Sequence record: OQ708377.1
DNA: 64,000 nt
Source: Escherichia phage vB_EcoM_CRP22
Direction: 5' to 3' (one strand)
Made by a program: the position numbers and the translations under genes. The stretch's first letter is position 1; the number at the start of each line of letters is the position of its first letter. Of the stretch, positions 8,434 to 13,651 are shown one piece after another. Under the pieces are notes generated by a model. The model made no database searches. It saw nothing but the letters and a program-made list of their open reading frames with translations, and was not told where the DNA came from.

Positions 8434-9849
8434 ATGAGCGAGTTATTTAAACATGCGCACCTTCATGTAGGTCGAACTGAAAATGGTGCTGTAAACCATA
8501 CTTCATCAATGTCTGCTCTGGTAGACTTCTACAAAGCCGCTGGCTCAAGCCGTAGCAATGTAGAAATCTTACCAGACCTGTTCTACAAAGCTTTGCGTGA
8601 GGATGTTGATGTTGCAGTTCGTATTTTACTGCATATGCGAGATGTACGAGAAGGTATGGGTGAGCGTAAAGCTTTCCGAACTGTTTTGCTTCAAACGATT
8701 GAAGATAAGGTTTTAGAACCTACACAGGTTCTTCGCATTATGGATAAGATTGCAGAACTTGGTCGTTTTGATGACTTCAAAATCTTCGTAGGTACTCGTT
8801 TCGAGACAGATGCCTTCAAACATTTAGAAGCAGCATTACTAGACCCTGCAACAGCAGGTTTAGCGGCTAAGTGGTTACCACGAGTAAAACCACGCCACAA
8901 ACAGTTTGTAAAACGTTTCTGTAAGTTTGCAAACTTAAGCGAGAAGGAGTATCGCACACTGTTATCTGCACTGTCTGATACGGTTGAGCAAAAAATCTCT
9001 GCTAATGAGTTTGGTAAGATTGACTACAGCAAGATTCCTTCACTCGCTGCTGCACGTTACCAAAAACTCTTTAACCGTAAAGATGGGGAACGTTACAAAG
9101 CTTACATCGAGTCCCTCTCAAAAGGTGAGGCTAAGATTAACGCTGGTGCTGTTTACCCATATGATGTGATTAAATCTATTAAGTATGGTAATGCAGATGT
9201 TGCTAACGAGCAGTGGAAAGCACTACCAAACTGGATGGCAGAAGGTGAAAACATCTTGTGTATGACTGATGTTTCAAGCTCAATGTCTTGGGTGAATCTT
9301 GGCTCAATTACTGCCCTTGATATTGGTGTATCACTTGCCTTGTATGTAGCAGAACGCAATACAGGTTGCTTTAAAGATGAGTTAATGGTCTATTCAACAA
9401 ACCCTCATTTCATTGAACTGAGTGGTGATTTACGAAACCGTCATCGTCAGGTGATGCGTCATGTTGAATATGGTTCAACTAACTTACAAGCAGCCTTTGA
9501 CCGCATTCTTGAGACAGGTAAGAGAAACAACTTGACTCAGAAAGATATGCCAAGTAAGCTTATCATCTTCTCCGATATGGAGTTCAATCAGGTTGATGGA
9601 GCTAACGGTCGTACAAACTTTGAAGCAATTCAGAGCAAGTACAAAAAAGCTGGATATGAGATGCCACAACTGGTATTCTGGTACTTAGCAAACCGTAATG
9701 GCACTTGCGAAGTGTCTGTTAAGGATAATGGTGTAGCAATGGTATCAGGGTTCTCTCCAGCCACTTTAAAAGCTCTGCTTGGTGGTGAGAAGTTTGACCC
9801 AATCAGCGTAATGCTCAAAGCAGTAATGATTGACCGTTACATCTGGTAA
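8434..9849 (+). CDS. von Willebrand factor A (vWA) domain protein; possible Ro60/TROVE-like protein
   Basis: 471 aa; MIDAS-type DxSxS motif (CMTDVSSSMSW) after a ~270-aa N-terminal region; Ro60 assignment is inference from context only. Confidence 0.6.
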   Translation: MSELFKHAHLHVGRTENGAVNHTSSMSALVDFYKAAGSSRSNVEILPDLFYKALREDVDVAVRILLHMRDVREGMGERKAFRTVLLQTIEDKVLEPTQVLRIMDKIAELGRFDDFKIFVGTRFETDAFKHLEAALLDPATAGLAAKWLPRVKPRHKQFVKRFCKFANLSEKEYRTLLSALSDTVEQKISANEFGKIDYSKIPSLAAARYQKLFNRKDGERYKAYIESLSKGEAKINAGAVYPYDVIKSIKYGNADVANEQWKALPNWMAEGENILCMTDVSSSMSWVNLGSITALDIGVSLALYVAERNTGCFKDELMVYSTNPHFIELSGDLRNRHRQVMRHVEYGSTNLQAAFDRILETGKRNNLTQKDMPSKLIIFSDMEFNQVDGANGRTNFEAIQSKYKKAGYEMPQLVFWYLANRNGTCEVSVKDNGVAMVSGFSPATLKALLGGEKFDPISVMLKAVMIDRYIW

Positions 9850-9867: not shown

Positions 9868-9896
9868 TTGACAATGTGTTTAATACCCTTTAATAT
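9868..9896 (+). promoter_or_regulatory. sigma70-like promoter embedded in an inverted repeat, upstream of tRNA array
   Basis: TTGACA - 17 nt - TAATAT; flanked by aagggtatt ... aataccctt. Confidence 0.5.
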
Positions 9897-10014
9897 GTTC
9901 TACATAGAAACGAAATGAGAGCTTTTCTAAGATACTGAAAAATATTTTAAAAAAGTTCTTGACAACCACTAAAAAATAATGTTAAAGTGGTTACATAGAG
10001 TTTGAAAAGTTTAT

Positions 10015-10176: not shown

Positions 10177-10267
10177 GTTTTGACAGAAGACCAATTACAG
10201 CAAGTTTAATCTTATTCATCTGACACGAAATCGGACAAAGAAGAGATTTGGTCTGGTCATTAAGAAT

Positions 10268-10344
10268 TGCGGGTATAGAGAAAGGGCGTCTCACATGTCT
10301 CATTAGCATGGTATCGGCAGGTTCGACTCCTGCACCCGCCTCCA
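10268..10344 (+). tRNA. tRNA-Met (anticodon CAT)
   Basis: Acceptor tgcgggt/acccgcc, anticodon loop ctCATta, T-arm gcagg-ttcgact-cctgc, CCA. Confidence 0.65.
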
Positions 10345-10421
10345 ATTTTGCAGAAGACCGTATTCAGCAACAAACTACTTTTTGCGGATAAAAGAAAAAA
10401 CACGGTCTGGCAATGTATTAA

Positions 10422-10497
10422 GGTTAGGAAGCACATAAGGTATGTGCGGTCGCCTGTTAAGCGAATGGCACAGGGTTCGAATCCCTGACTAACCGCA
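10422..10497 (+). tRNA. tRNA-Asn (anticodon GTT)
   Basis: Anticodon loop ctGTTaa, T-arm caggg-ttcgaat-ccctg; acceptor has one mismatch. Confidence 0.6.
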
Positions 10498-10506
10498 AAA
10501 TTAAAT

Positions 10507-10594
10507 GTGTCGTTATCCCGTAGATGGTAGCGGTGGGGACTGTAAATCCCTTGTCATTGAGACTCGGTAGGTTCGACTCCTACACGGCACACCA
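10507..10594 (+). tRNA. tRNA-Tyr (anticodon GTA), long variable arm
   Basis: Acceptor gtgtcgt/acggcac, anticodon stem gggga/tccct with loop ctGTAaa, long extra arm, T-arm gtagg-ttcgact-cctac, CCA. Confidence 0.7.
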
Positions 10595-10616
10595 ACACTT
10601 AGCGAGATACTTAGTT

Positions 10617-11045
10617 ATGAGAGATGAAGTATACAAATCACAACTTGGTATGAGTTTAGGAACTGCACAAAACAGACTAGTAAAAGATTTGCTATTCGAT
10701 TTTATATGTAAAACAAATCAAAATAGATGTTTTCAGTGCGGAAAAGAAATGACTAGGGATGATTTCTCCATCGAGCATAAGGTTCCGTGGAGACATAGTG
10801 AAAACGCAAAAGAGCTTTTCTTTTCACTGGATAATATCTCTTATAGTCATCTTAAATGTAATATGAAAGCAGCAAGACCAGCACAGATAAGTGAAAGAAA
10901 ACATAAAACAGTTGAACACGGAACTGCGTATAGCTATTACAAAGGCTGTAGATGCGAGGAGTGTAGGTTGGCTAAGAATGCTGCTAGCAGGAAGAACTAT
11001 AGCCCAGAAAGGCGTAGGAAGAAGTATTTAAGAAATGGCACATAG
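10617..11045 (+). CDS. HNH endonuclease (free-standing, inside tRNA array)
   Basis: 143 aa from internal ATG; CFQCGKEM...EHKVPW...HLKCN zinc-binding HNH-like motifs; the track ORF start at 10524 overlaps tRNA-Tyr and is rejected. Confidence 0.7.
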   Translation: MRDEVYKSQLGMSLGTAQNRLVKDLLFDFICKTNQNRCFQCGKEMTRDDFSIEHKVPWRHSENAKELFFSLDNISYSHLKCNMKAARPAQISERKHKTVEHGTAYSYYKGCRCEECRLAKNAASRKNYSPERRRKKYLRNGT

Positions 11046-11049
11046 TTTT

Positions 11050-11125
11050 GGGGTATTAGTTTAGACGGTTAAAATACGGGATTGTCTCTCCTGAGCCGCG
11101 AGTTCGATTCTCGCATACCTCGCCA
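11050..11125 (+). tRNA. tRNA-Asp (anticodon GTC)
   Basis: Acceptor ggggtat/atacctc, anticodon stem cggga/tcctg with loop ttGTCtc, T-arm gcgag-ttcgatt-ctcgc, CCA. Confidence 0.7.
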
Positions 11126-11273
11126 ATTTTGAGAGGGCTATTTAGCCCCTCCCTTAAAGAGTTATTACGAGTATTCTTTAAAGGAGCAGAAGACCAAATT
11201 CAGCAAGTTACTTAAAATTTCAAGCCAATTTAATTTTGAAAAATTTAAAACTTGGTCTGGCTTAACAAATTTA

Positions 11274-11404
11274 CAGAAGACCGTTTACAGCAAAACTTAA
11301 ACAATCTATTTCTCGGTAAAGAAAAGGCGAAGGTTCGATTCCTTCACTCGGCAGATGTCGAGTTGGTGTAATGGTAGCACTTAAGATGATAAACAACGGT
11401 CTGG
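11274..11404 (+). ncRNA. Candidate structured ncRNA: circularly permuted tRNA-like module enclosed by an 8-bp stem (possible Y-RNA/YrlA-like element)
   Basis: Linear order is stem strand agaccgtt, T-arm gaagg-ttcgatt-ccttc, acceptor 3' strand actcggc, 4-nt loop, acceptor 5' strand gtcgagt, D-arm gtgt-aatggta-gcac, stem strand aacggtct; the acceptor halves pair over 7 bp. Confidence 0.35.
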
Positions 11405-11405
11405 T

Positions 11406-11551
11406 AATTATCTTTGCAGTAGCTTATGTGGCTAATTATGTCGTCCCATGAGTGCCGATGAATTTCCTTAGCATGATTCTAGATTAGCTTAATAGGGAAT
11501 GACTCTACAGACCCTTTAGCAAGGTCTGCGTAGGTTACTGCAAAGATAATT
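11406..11551 (+). ncRNA. Candidate structured RNA domain closed by a 16-bp stem
   Basis: aattatctttgcagta (11406-11421) is the perfect reverse complement of tactgcaaagataatt (11535-11550), enclosing ~112 nt with an internal cagacc...ggtctg hairpin. Confidence 0.3.
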
Positions 11552-11555
11552 TAAT

Positions 11556-11631
11556 GGAAGTGTAGCAGAATGGTGATGCGGCAGACTTTTAATCTGACAG
11601 GCGATGGGTTCGAATCCATCCACTTCTACCA
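11556..11631 (+). tRNA. tRNA-Lys (anticodon TTT)
   Basis: Acceptor ggaagtg/cacttct, anticodon loop ctTTTaa, T-loop ttcgaat, CCA. Confidence 0.6.
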
Positions 11632-11834: not shown

Positions 11835-12126
11835 AACTAAAATACTTCATAATATGTATAATTCAAACACCAATACATGAGTATTAGACGTAATGCAATG
11901 TGGGGAAATTTGTTGTACATATTCTGAATAGTTTTCGTTGCGTAGCGTCTATTTTGCAAATTTAAAATAAATGCAAACGACAATGTTTTTCTGGCAGTAG
12001 CTTGATAGGCTAAACACCAGTGAGGTCTTCCAATCCCTCATCAAAGAATTTGGCGTACTCGCCCACGGTATGATTAATAAGGTGGGCATCTTTAAGGGTT
12101 TTTAAGAGAGTCTTTAAAGATAATTA

Positions 12127-12208
12127 CGGGGCGTATCTCAGCTGTCTTCTAAACAGCCGTTAACCGAGTAAGTGGAGTATGCGGGTTCGAGTCCTGCCGC
12201 CTCGACCA
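12127..12208 (+). tRNA. Atypical tRNA-like gene, possibly Arg (anticodon TCT); D-arm not resolvable
   Basis: Acceptor cggggcg/cgcctcg, T-arm gcggg-ttcgagt-cctgc, CCA; clean stem gctgt/acagc with loop ctTCTaa but no canonical D-arm by eye. Confidence 0.4.
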
Positions 12209-12222
12209 ATTTTGGAGAAATC

Positions 12223-12570
12223 ATGAAAACTTGTATTAGGTGCAAACTTAGCAAGGATGAAAATGATTTCTACATGAAAGATGGTAGAAGAACTCATTCA
12301 TACTGTAAAAAGTGTGTTAATGAGCAAACCATAGAAAGACAAAGAGCACTTAAACTCTCAGCTATTGAGTACAAAGGTGGTGTTTGTCAGGATTGTGGTA
12401 AAAGGTATCATCCAGCAGTGTATGACTTCCATCATTTGAATCCTTCAGAGAAAGATTTTAACATTGCTCATAGAAGAAGTCTTAAGTTCTCTCAGGAGCT
12501 TAAGAACGAACTTGACAAATGTGTTTTGCTATGTTCAAATTGCCATAGGGTAAGACATGCAAAGTATTAG
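12223..12570 (+). CDS. HNH endonuclease (free-standing, inside tRNA array)
   Basis: 115 aa from internal ATG (MKTCIRCK...); CxxC pairs and FHHLNP...LLCSNCHRVRH HNH motif; the track start at 12172 overlaps the preceding tRNA-like gene. Confidence 0.7.
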   Translation: MKTCIRCKLSKDENDFYMKDGRRTHSYCKKCVNEQTIERQRALKLSAIEYKGGVCQDCGKRYHPAVYDFHHLNPSEKDFNIAHRRSLKFSQELKNELDKCVLLCSNCHRVRHAKY

Positions 12571-12893: not shown

Positions 12894-13148
12894 TAATAAG
12901 ATTTAAAGCCAAGCTTCATTCGGATGTTGCTTTGGTATCCCTCGTGTATTGTCGTACACACTGATAAAGCACCTGGTAGGTGTCACGGAGAAGAGATAAT
13001 ATCAAGCTCTCCAAAGGTTCTAGTCACCGGATTAAACAAGACTATGCAAAGACCAATTTAGGTCTTTTTAGAGGGCTTCTAAGGTTATTACAGCTTGTTG
13101 TGGAACCTTGTTGCTTAGGTTCTTAGAAGTTCTCTAAAAAGATTTAAT

Positions 13149-13555: not shown

Positions 13556-13651
13556 ATTCAGAGGTCAAGTGAAAGACCGCTTTGAGTCAACTGAAGACCG
13601 TAACAAATCCCACGGAGTTGAGTTAGCGGCACAACTTCAGACCTCTTTCAT

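What the first reader, a model, noticed from the sequence alone, without database searches (positions are those of the whole stretch)
10184..11404. Family of four conserved CAGAAGACC...GGTCTGG hairpins in tRNA spacers
Four spacers share a conserved 5' arm CAGAAGACC-RWWTT-MCAGCAA and 3' arm (W)ACGGTCTGG or TTGGTCTGG, forming 7-8 bp stems around variable 45-110 nt loops: 10184-10256, 10351-10410, 11187-11260, 11274-11404. Each begins a few nt after a tRNA 3' end. Related (C/T)GAAGACCGT motifs occur at 13591-13600 and in hairpins at 13049-13066 and 11509-11530. This level of conservation in non-coding spacers suggests function: a processing signal, a protein-binding stem, or small-RNA genes.
Basis: seen in the sequence. 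Interest (0 to 1): 0.7.

Follow-up and report, generated by a model that had tools for sequence, protein, structure and literature searches.

The report
Phage Y-like small RNAs beside Ro60-like gene
The four hairpins are genes for small structured RNAs of a widespread, unannotated phage family that always sits next to a Ro60-like RNA-binding protein gene and closely resembles both bacterial Y RNAs and the enigmatic 'Class I' RNAs of social amoebae.

Summary
Four paralogous elements (10181-10259, 10348-10413, 11184-11263, 11271-11407, + strand) share one fold: a 4-bp outer helix, a 5' AGA bulge opposite a G, a 7-8 bp helix (AGACCRW/WYGGUCU) and a single-stranded UW(A/U)CAGCAA.

The window is a FelixO1-like phage. 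The gene just upstream (8434-9849, DUF2828+DUF7788/vWA) models as a Ro60 ring; its 12 best PDB matches are all Ro60.

The same RNA design (AAG-stem-UUACAGCAA ... stem-CUG(U), median 63 nt) lies beside homologues of this gene in phages of Klebsiella, Mycobacterium, Campylobacter, Listeria, Staphylococcus, Bacillus and many metagenomic viruses. A covariance model gave 95 hits on the gene strand and none opposite. Many of these loci have no tRNA nearby.

Copy 4 carries a permuted tRNA-like module (V-T-closed acceptor-D), as in bacterial YrlA. Relatives of it hit Rfam YrlA below threshold.

The short copies hit Rfam 'Dictyostelium Class I RNA', which has the same motif, termini and size and was thought unique to social amoebae.

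Best reading: Y-RNA-like partners of a divergent phage Ro60. They are not tRNA processing signals. Binding and function are inferred, not shown.

The parts
8434..9849 (+). Gene for a 471-aa Ro60-fold protein (N-terminal helical-repeat DUF2828 plus C-terminal vWA-like DUF7788); the proposed protein partner of the RNAs
   Evidence: Pfam PF11443 and PF25043. PHROG 850 'RNA-binding protein'. AF2 model pLDDT 87. The Foldseek PDB top 12 hits are all Ro60/Rsr/phage phiLo Ro60, E about 1e-7, TM 0.5-0.66. 33% identical to mycobacteriophage 'Ro-like RNA binding protein'.
9868..9988 (+). Two sigma-70-like promoter matches (9868-9896 and 9959-9988) just upstream of the first tRNA; probable start of the tRNA/small-RNA transcription unit
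   Evidence: Consensus scan, 10/12 matches each; no terminator-like site on the + strand before 15410. These are consensus matches only.
10181..10259 (+). Copy 1, a short Class-I/Y-like RNA. Outer helix 10181-10184/10256-10259, AGA bulge 10185-10187, inner helix 10188-10194/10248-10254, motif UUACAGCAA 10195-10203, unpaired G 10255. Lies between tRNA-Glu and tRNA-Met
   Evidence: 37.3 bits.
10348..10413 (+). Copy 2, a short Class-I/Y-like RNA. Outer helix 10348-10351/10410-10413, inner helix 10355-10361/10402-10408, motif AUUCAGCAA 10362-10370. Lies between tRNA-Met and tRNA-Asn
   Evidence: 43.5 bits. Rfam Dicty_Class_I_RNA 21.4 bits over the full model. The outer-helix pair switches A-U/G-C among orthologues.
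11184..11263 (+). Copy 3, a short Class-I/Y-like RNA. Outer helix 11184-11187/11260-11263, inner helix 11191-11197/11252-11258, motif AUUCAGCAA
   Evidence: 38.4 bits. Rfam Dicty_Class_I_RNA 14.9 bits.
11271..11407 (+). Copy 4, a long YrlA-like RNA. It has the same closing helices and UUACAGCAA motif, enclosing a permuted tRNA-like module: V arm about 11305-11327, T arm 11329-11345, loop-closed acceptor-like stem 11346-11363, D arm 11365-11381
   Evidence: RNAfold. Orthologue alignment and RNAalifold: T and D arms invariant, acceptor-like stem with 3 compensatory pairs. The Rfam tRNA model matches the T arm. ARAGORN calls the un-permuted construct a tRNA once the V arm is trimmed, with 0 calls in 600 shuffles. 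Model R1 18.2 bits although not in the seed.
11508..11528 (+). Mini-hairpin CAGACC-CUUUAGCAA-GGUCUG that resembles a loop-less copy of the element. It is embedded in a separate 150-nt structured RNA (11406-11551). It may be an extra binding site; membership is uncertain
   Evidence: G-C to A-U compensatory change in orthologues. Not hit by model R1.

Best explanation
The four elements are genes for small non-coding RNAs. They are made as part of the phage tRNA polycistron and probably released by the enzymes that trim the flanking tRNAs. I propose they are the RNA subunits of a ribonucleoprotein formed with the Ro60-fold DUF2828/vWA protein encoded immediately upstream. The protein would recognise the terminal helix, flanked by AAG at the 5' end and CUG at the 3' end, together with the single-stranded UUACAGCAA at the top of the 5' strand. 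This is analogous to Ro60 binding the conserved stem of Y RNAs. The variable loop would be the effector end. In copies 1-3 it is a short A-rich loop or hairpin. In copy 4 it is a permuted tRNA-like module, as in bacterial YrlA. By analogy with Rsr-Y RNA-PNPase, the RNA would gate the protein's RNA-binding ring, or tether it to a host enzyme such as a 3'-5' exoribonuclease or a tRNA-handling or repair enzyme. The likely purpose is RNA quality control, repair or counter-defence during infection. What is shown: the conserved fold, covariation, strand-specific genomic coupling to the protein gene across very distant phages, the Ro60 fold of the protein, and the tRNA-like module. What is inferred: expression as stable RNAs, physical binding, and the downstream function.
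For: (1) The four paralogues share one fold, with helices that covary between copies and between orthologues aligned by synteny (copy 2 outer helix A-U/G-C; copy 4 acceptor-like stem, 3 compensatory pairs). One-sided changes give G-U wobbles that pair only on the + strand. (2) The neighbouring protein has a Ro60 fold: the top 12 PDB matches are all Ro60. (3) The same RNA design sits within about 1.5 kb of homologues of that gene in 10 of the 11 GenBank phages inspected, from 10 host genera; the Vibrio phage gave only a weak candidate. It also sits there in most of 80 IMG/VR loci. CAGCAA with a canonical stem of at least 6 bp occurs 189 times on the gene strand against 43 opposite and 8-54 for control hexamers. 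Covariance model R1 gives 95 hits at E<=1 in 549 kb, all on the gene strand. (4) Coupling is to the protein gene and not to tRNAs: only 26 of 77 loci have any tRNA within 3 kb. (5) The Rfam YrlA model matches long relatives over its full length (41.4, 39.6, 38.2 and 37.8 bits), and un-permuted constructs are called tRNAs by ARAGORN. (6) The architecture V-T-AS-D and the location next to a Ro60 gene match published YrlA (PMC4201824). A phage Ro60 has been shown to bind adjacent Yrl RNAs and host PNPase (PMC12135203).
Against: There are no expression, end-mapping or binding data. The published Ro60-binding motif (GNCGAAN0-1G, or CGAA) is absent. The window's copies do not reach any Rfam gathering score, and copy 4 gets no YrlA hit at all. 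The protein matches Ro60 only by predicted fold, with no TROVE Pfam hit and no PDB sequence hit. About a third of the DUF2828 loci gave no detectable element within 3 kb. The pairing statistics on descriptor-selected elements are circular. Genomic linkage does not prove physical interaction.
Confidence: 0.7

Rival explanations
1. The elements are cis-acting tRNA-processing or spacer signals (RNase P/E/Z guides, or structural insulators) within the tRNA polycistron, with no life of their own.
For: Copies 1 and 2 sit between tRNAs, starting 4-7 nt after a CCA end. The DUF2828 gene often lies in or beside phage tRNA clusters, and all 139 flanking tRNAs are on the same strand.
Against: The same elements occur beside the DUF2828 gene in at least 25 loci with no tRNA within 3 kb, for example mycobacteriophage Crossroads. 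Most tRNA spacers in this window lack them. Copies 3 and 4 are not adjacent to tRNA ends.
Confidence: 0.05
2. The elements are cis-regulatory operators on the mRNA of the Ro60-like gene. The protein would bind its own leader or trailer to autoregulate, so the elements would not be separate small RNAs.
For: In many loci the elements lie within 300 nt upstream or downstream of the coding sequence on the same strand.
Against: In this window they lie 330-1560 nt downstream, beyond two promoter-like sites and interleaved with tRNAs. There are up to 6 tandem copies per locus, some with tRNA-like modules. The Dictyostelium look-alikes are free, abundant RNAs (PMC7919456).
Confidence: 0.1
3. The elements are genuine small RNAs, but they work independently of the neighbouring protein. 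They could be decoys for host tRNA-targeting nucleases or sponges for a host factor (host Rsr, PNPase, an RRM-type protein). The linkage to DUF2828 would then reflect co-regulation only.
For: There is no direct binding evidence. Dictyostelium Class I RNA is known to bind an RRM protein directly. The tRNA-like module could mimic substrates of anticodon nucleases.
Against: Very tight, strand-specific linkage is kept across phages of Gram-negative, Gram-positive and actinobacterial hosts, whose host factors differ. The partner has the fold of the one protein family known to use such stem-plus-module RNAs.
Confidence: 0.12
4. The elements are DNA-level repeats, such as protein-binding sites, recombination or homing-endonuclease targets, MITE-like insertions or decayed tRNA genes, and have no RNA function.
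For: Two HNH endonuclease genes interrupt the cluster. Copy 4 contains tRNA-like pieces.
Against: The strand bias is absolute (95:0). The helices tolerate G-U pairs and compensatory changes while their sequence drifts. A single-stranded motif is invariant across distant phages. Relatives that lack the HNH gene keep the flanking region.
Confidence: 0.03

Closest known systems
Bacterial/phage YrlA and YrlB Y RNA-like RNAs bound by Ro60 (Rsr) (Rfam RF02553; Chen et al. 2014, PMC4201824; Thermus phage phiLo Yrl1/2, PMC12135203)
   Same: Encoded next to a Ro60-fold/vWA protein gene, often in two or more copies. The 5' and 3' ends pair in a bulged terminal helix. One copy carries a tRNA-like module in the permuted order V-T-closed acceptor-D. 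Shorter partners lack it, like YrlB. Long relatives are matched end to end by the Rfam YrlA model (38-41 bits).
   Different: The protein is DUF2828, not Pfam TROVE; the similarity is by fold only. The GNCGAAN0-1G/CGAA motif is replaced by AAG...CUG termini plus UUACAGCAA. All scores are below the gathering cut-off of 69, and the window's copy 4 gets no YrlA hit. The genes are embedded in a tRNA polycistron.
Dictyostelium Class I RNAs (Rfam RF01414; Aspegren 2004, Avesson 2011, Kjellin 2021, PMC7919456)
   Same: About 60 nt long. A 6-7 bp terminal helix whose structure, not sequence, is conserved. Termini AAG...CUG(U). A (CC)UUACAGCAA motif immediately 3' of the 5' strand and unpaired. A variable A-rich remainder. 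Many paralogues. The Rfam model aligns phage elements end to end (21-30 bits; copy 2 of this window 21.4), and every hit coincides with an independently defined element.
   Different: Eukaryotic genes with a DUSE promoter, against phage genes co-transcribed with tRNAs. Scores are below the gathering cut-off of 41.5. The FelixO1-type copies add an outer helix and an AGA bulge. Class I RNAs were reported as unique to Dictyostelia, with an RRM protein (Rnp1A/CIBP) as the only proven direct binder. No link to Ro60 or DUF2828 has been reported in the papers I could search.
Metazoan Y RNAs with Ro60 (Rfam RF00019)
   Same: A terminal bulged helix formed by the two ends as the proposed protein-binding site, a variable effector loop, and a ring-shaped HEAT+vWA partner.
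   Different: No GGUCCGA/bulged-C helix, no Pol III terminator or La site, and no detectable sequence similarity.

Membership tests
YrlA (Rfam RF02553) | Score at or above the curated gathering cut-off (69 bits) | tested here: not met
   No YrlA hit on window 11170-11560 even at E<=10. Relatives in other phages score 37.8-41.4 bits over the full model.
YrlA (Rfam RF02553) | tRNA-like domain with T arm, loop-closed acceptor-like stem and D arm in that order, preceded by a V arm | tested here: met
   Met by copy 4 only: fold, alignment with compensatory acceptor-like stem, Rfam tRNA T-arm match, and ARAGORN on the un-permuted construct with trimmed V arm. Copies 1-3 lack it.
YrlA (Rfam RF02553) | GNCGAAN0-1G motif near the 5' end (putative Rsr contact) | tested here: not met
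   The sequence is (N)NC-A-GAAG (for example GACAGAAG), with an extra A. GAAG is absent in the mycobacteriophage and Campylobacter-phage relatives, while CAGCAA is invariant.
YrlA (Rfam RF02553) | Encoded adjacent to a Ro60 orthologue | tested here: inconclusive
   Adjacent to a protein with a Ro60 fold. That protein is not detected as TROVE by Pfam or by PDB sequence search.
Dictyostelium Class I RNA (Rfam RF01414) | Score at or above the gathering cut-off (41.5 bits) | tested here: not met
   Window copy 2 scores 21.4 bits and copy 3 scores 14.9 bits. Relatives score 23.1-29.6 bits.
Dictyostelium Class I RNA (Rfam RF01414) | Short terminal helix joining the 5' and 3' ends, conserved in structure but not in sequence | tested here: met
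   A 7-bp helix in all copies. 33 diverse elements show 2-4 pair types at every position (pairing is circular by selection).
Dictyostelium Class I RNA (Rfam RF01414) | 11-nt motif CCUUACAGCAA adjacent to the 5' strand of the helix, largely unpaired | tested here: met
   UUACAGCAA in copies 1 and 4, AUUCAGCAA in copies 2 and 3. Logo of 79 phage elements: U62 U84 A57 and C A G C A A all at 100%, though CAGCAA was the search anchor. The first two C's of the 11-mer are not conserved.
Dictyostelium Class I RNA (Rfam RF01414) | Conserved termini AAG...CUGU and length about 42-65 nt | tested here: met
   Phage consensus is A A G ... C U G U with median length 63 nt. The window copies have AAG...CUGG cores of 54-68 nt, extended by an outer helix. 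Mature ends were not mapped.
Dictyostelium Class I RNA (Rfam RF01414) | DUSE promoter about 60 nt upstream; restricted to Dictyostelia | tested here: not met
   This is a phage locus with sigma-70-like promoters upstream of a tRNA polycistron.
Ro60/TROVE protein family (for the neighbouring gene) | HEAT-repeat ring plus vWA/MIDAS domain | tested here: met
   AF2 model. Full-length Foldseek matches to 2i91, 1yvr, 2nvo, 9kop, 9l5y and 9nfa.
Ro60/TROVE protein family (for the neighbouring gene) | Pfam TROVE (PF05731) sequence signature | tested here: not met
   Only PF11443 and PF25043 are found, even at E<=10.
Ro60/TROVE protein family (for the neighbouring gene) | Binds Y RNA and misfolded RNA | not testable with these tools
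   Needs EMSA or RIP.

The most novel reading that the evidence does not exclude
The phage elements and the Dictyostelium Class I RNAs are one ancient RNA family whose cognate partner is the DUF2828/vWA Ro60-fold protein. Class I RNAs, reported as unique to social amoebae and of unknown mechanism, would then be Y-RNA-like subunits of a DUF2828 RNP. DDB_G0281243, the unknown-function protein that was pulled down with Class I RNA DdR-21, would be predicted to be that protein. DUF2828 proteins form about 8,800 clusters at 50% identity. They would be defined as a second, Ro60-like branch of RNA-surveillance RNPs with its own RNA code (AAG-helix-UUACAGCAA...CUGU).
Probability: 0.45. Interest if true: 0.9.

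Novelty: new variant of a known kind. Interest (0 to 1): 0.8.

Why it matters
If confirmed, this assigns a partner RNA and a plausible role to DUF2828/DUF7788, a very large family of unknown function: 8,784 clusters at 50% identity, mostly phage and metagenomic. It adds an unannotated but very common class of phage non-coding RNA genes, some of which are currently mis-annotated as tiny ORFs. It shows that Ro60-type RNPs with tRNA-mimicking RNAs are routine equipment of tRNA-carrying virulent phages such as FelixO1, A511/P100-like Listeria phages and Campylobacter phages. Finally, it offers a concrete, testable hypothesis for the mechanism of Dictyostelium Class I RNAs, an open question since 2004.

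Tried and rejected
(1) Sequence searches of the protein against PDB, single sequence and profile, found nothing relevant. Only the fold search showed Ro60.

(2) The Rfam scan of copy 4 gave no YrlA hit. ARAGORN did not call the un-permuted copy 4 with its full 27-nt V arm, only with the V arm trimmed.

(4) The terminator reading was rejected: there is no U-tract and no terminator-like call at the elements.

(5) I tried to find the Dictyostelium DUF2828 homologue and to identify DDB_G0281243. The AFDB fold library was unavailable. The profile search of 1.84 billion representatives and a second homologue search, seeded with the Campylobacter phage protein, listed only phage-like proteins in their capped top lists. 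Paper searches were exhausted. This link is therefore untested.

(6) The supplementary tables of Chen et al. 2014, which list the phages with YrlA, are not held. I cannot exclude that a few DUF2828-type mycobacteriophages were in their set. The weak YrlA score on Crossroads (21.6 bits) suggests they were not.

(7) My regex for D arms was too strict to classify all the long elements.
Full report
CONTEXT. The window is a FelixO1-like (Ounavirinae) phage, 95.8% identical over this region to Salmonella phage BPS17W1. ARAGORN finds 25 tRNA genes on the + strand between 10015 and 15245. Two sigma-70-like promoter matches (9868-9896 and 9959-9988) precede the first tRNA. No terminator-like site appears on the + strand before 15410. 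These are consensus matches only.

THE OBSERVATION. Exact CAGAAGACC occurs six times in 64 kb, four of them within 1.2 kb. GGTCTGG is about three-fold over-represented.

Folded separately, all four adopt one architecture:
- a 4-bp outer helix that differs in sequence in each copy but always pairs (UGAC/GUCA, UUGC/GCAA, GAGC/GCUU, UUAC/GUAA);
- a 5' AGA bulge opposite a single G;
- an inner helix AGACC(AA|GU)/(UU|AC)GGUCU, in which the two variable pairs change in a compensatory way between copies;
- an unpaired UW(A/U)CAGCAA.

Orthologues aligned by synteny, and so not selected for pairing, add further support. Copy 2 shows an A-U/G-C switch in the outer helix and an A-U to G-U change in the inner helix. 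G-U wobbles pair only if the + strand RNA is what folds. Only copies 1 and 2 directly follow tRNAs.

THE NEIGHBOUR. The ORF at 8434-9849 ends 330 nt upstream of copy 1. It is DUF2828 (PF11443) plus DUF7788 (PF25043) and belongs to PHROG 850, 'RNA-binding protein'. It is 33% identical to proteins that mycobacteriophage annotators call 'Ro-like RNA binding protein'. Sequence searches against PDB find nothing. An AlphaFold2 model (pLDDT 87, pTM 0.87) has Ro60 structures as its 12 best PDB matches: Xenopus and human Ro60, Deinococcus Rsr and Thermus phage phiLo Ro60. These align over the full length with E about 1e-7 and TM 0.5-0.66. Isolated vWA domains follow. The protein is therefore a divergent Ro60-fold ring protein.

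THE RNA FAMILY ELSEWHERE. I read the DNA around homologues of this gene in 11 GenBank phages. Beside the gene, on its strand, in one to six tandem copies, I found the same design: a 7-9 bp helix, two nucleotides, then (A/U)CAGCAA, a variable loop, the 3' strand, then G. It is present in Shigella Sf14, Klebsiella FBKp34, Mycobacterium Crossroads, Campylobacter F357, Aeromonas LAh_6, Ralstonia RSP15, Enterococcus VRE9_1, Staphylococcus 6ec, Listeria LMSP-25 and Bacillus PBC2. Vibrio V09 gave only a weak candidate.

Eighty further IMG/VR loci show the same pattern. CAGCAA with a stem of at least 6 bp in the canonical register occurs 189 times on the gene strand. It occurs 43 times on the other strand, and 8-54 times for eight control hexamers. 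The hits pile up within 1.5 kb of the gene.

The logo of 79 non-redundant elements is A-A-G-R-N-Y-N-N-U-U-A-CAGCAA ... A-rich ... N-N-R-N-Y-C-U-G-U, with a median length of 63 nt.

I built a covariance model from 33 short elements:
- In the window it finds only the four copies. The fourth was not in the seed.
- In 549 kb of 77 loci it finds 95 hits at E<=1. All 95 are on the gene strand and none on the opposite strand. At least 48 loci have a hit at E<0.01, many of them not in the seed.

Every helix position shows two to four pair types. Pairing there is circular, because the elements were selected for it; the strand and control statistics are not circular.

Only 26 of the 77 loci have any tRNA within 3 kb. 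The elements therefore track the protein gene, not tRNAs.

COPY 4 AND YrlA. Inside its closing helices, copy 4 contains four elements in order:
- a V-like hairpin;
- a canonical T arm (GAAGG-UUCGAUU-CCUUC), which the Rfam tRNA model matches;
- a 7-bp acceptor-like stem closed by a tetraloop;
- a D arm (GUGU-AAUGGUA-GCAC).

This V-T-AS-D order is exactly the one described for bacterial YrlA (PMC4201824). Among Ounavirinae the T and D arms are invariant, while the acceptor-like stem has three different sequences that all pair.

Equivalent long elements occur in other phages, and the Rfam YrlA model matches some of them end to end. Scores are L045 41.4, Klebsiella phage 39.6, L029 38.2 and Bacillus phage 37.8 bits, all below the cut-off of 69.

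I un-permuted three constructs in silico: cut in the acceptor loop, rejoined, and supplied with an artificial 7-nt anticodon loop. ARAGORN at default settings calls the Klebsiella and L029 constructs as complete cloverleaves. It calls the FelixO1 construct once its long V arm is trimmed. It makes no calls in 600 shuffles.

A few loci instead enclose a standard-order tRNA-like unit (D then T) within the helix. This recalls the different topology of Deinococcus Yrn1.

THE SHORT COPIES AND DICTYOSTELIUM CLASS I RNAs. Rfam's Dicty_Class_I_RNA model (RF01414) aligns end to end with short elements:
- Aeromonas phage: 29.6, 28.0 and 25.7 bits;
- Klebsiella phage: 25.2 and 23.6 bits;
- Listeria phage: 23.1 bits;
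- window copy 2: 21.4 bits, and copy 3: 14.9 bits.

All scores are below the cut-off of 41.5. However, every hit coincides with an element I had defined independently, and none falls elsewhere.

The Rfam consensus is GaUcuC-CUUACAGCAA-...-AAAAA-...-GagAuC-UG. The published description (PMC7919456) lists a length of 42-65 nt, a 6-bp terminal stem conserved in structure but not in sequence, termini AAG...CUGU, and an unpaired 11-nt motif next to the 5' strand. This matches the phage logo almost point for point.

That paper found no Class I RNA outside Dictyostelia, and their mechanism is unknown. Its preprint lists the proteins pulled down with Class I RNA DdR-21: GuaB, NdkC, the RRM protein CIBP/Rnp1A, and DDB_G0281243 of unknown function. 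I could not determine whether DDB_G0281243 is a DUF2828 protein.

INTERPRETATION. The best-supported reading is that the four elements are Y-RNA-like small RNAs that partner the adjacent divergent Ro60.
- The AAG/CUG-flanked helix plus UUACAGCAA is the conserved part and presumably the protein-binding part.
- The loop is the variable effector part. One paralogue mimics tRNA.
- The precedent is direct. Ro60/Rsr binds Y RNAs encoded next to it. YrlA is a tRNA mimic. A phage Ro60 (phiLo) binds two adjacent Yrl RNAs and host PNPase (PMC4201824; PMC12135203).
- The Listeria phage locus also encodes an RtcB ligase nearby, echoing the bacterial rsr-yrlBA-rtcBA operon.

Being flanked by tRNAs, the FelixO1 copies could be released by RNase P and 3' trimming. 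That step is inference.

The rival readings fit the data worse, for the reasons given under each: tRNA-processing signals, autoregulatory operators, protein-independent decoys, and DNA repeats.

NOVELTY. Ro60-Y RNA modules in phages are known for TROVE-type proteins. I found no paper linking DUF2828 proteins, FelixO1-like phages or Class I-type RNAs to them. No Rfam family reaches threshold. GenBank records leave the elements unannotated or call tiny ORFs over them. The protein family is very large: 8,784 clusters at 50% identity at E<=0.001. I rate this a new variant of a known kind, with a potentially far-reaching link to Dictyostelium Class I RNAs that remains to be tested.

Noticed in passing
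window 11406-11551 (+): A roughly 150-nt structured RNA between copy 4 and tRNA-Lys. It has a 22-bp closing stem and three internal hairpins, is conserved in Ounavirinae with 4 compensatory pairs, and has no Rfam match. One arm is the CAGACC-CUUUAGCAA-GGUCUG mini-hairpin that resembles the Y-like elements.
   Followed up: partly
window 13556-13651, 13058-13148, 11131-11184 (+): Other tRNA spacers fold far better than shuffles (z -3.8, -4.4 and -3.7). None belongs to the CAGCAA family. Their identity is unknown.
   Followed up: partly
window 12127-12205 (+): A tRNA-like sequence found by the Rfam tRNA model (31.2 bits) but not by ARAGORN. Its 3' part overlaps the listed ORF 12172-12570; the HNH-matching part of that ORF starts at 12214, after the tRNA-like sequence. 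Shigella phage Sf14 has tRNA-Arg(TCT) at the corresponding place. There are also weak tmRNA-like hits at 11879-12125, far below threshold.
   Followed up: no
window 10611-11045 and 12214-12570 (+): Two HNH endonuclease genes are inserted in the tRNA cluster. Many close relatives lack the first one: their matches cover only about 70% of the query.
   Followed up: partly
L002 (Klebsiella phage vB_KpM_FBKp34) 8003-8116: A tRNA-Asp annotated at 114 nt carries a roughly 40-nt insertion between the D arm and the anticodon stem. The insertion contains AACUUCU-uag-AGAAGUU followed by UUACAGCA, that is, the family motif inside a tRNA.
   Followed up: no
L010 (Listeria phage LMSP-25) 1431-1982 and 5811-7022: A ROOL RNA (88.5 bits, just under the cut-off of 99.1) and an RtcB-type RNA ligase gene lie within 3 kb of the DUF2828 gene and its three CAGCAA elements.
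   Followed up: no
L011 1269-1391; L077 5328-5428: Elements whose AAG...CUG helix and CAGCAA motif enclose a standard-order (D-anticodon-T) tRNA-like unit instead of the permuted one. In L011 it coincides with an annotated tRNA-Ile. The annotation table lists the L011 tRNAs on the opposite strand to Rfam and ARAGORN.
   Followed up: partly
window 10371-10401 versus L003 (Mycobacterium phage Crossroads) 5464-5490: The loop of copy 2 and the loop of a mycobacteriophage element share UUUGCGGAUAA(A/CA)AGAAAA. Other loops recur across distant phages, for example GCAUAGAAA in copy-1 orthologues and in the Klebsiella phage. This suggests conserved loop subtypes.
   Followed up: no
L008 (Enterococcus phage VRE9_1) 2826-2942; GenBank relatives of the window (e.g. 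PV659053, LC473039): Small 'hypothetical protein' CDSs are annotated over the RNA elements and tRNA spacers. These are probably mis-annotations.
   Followed up: no
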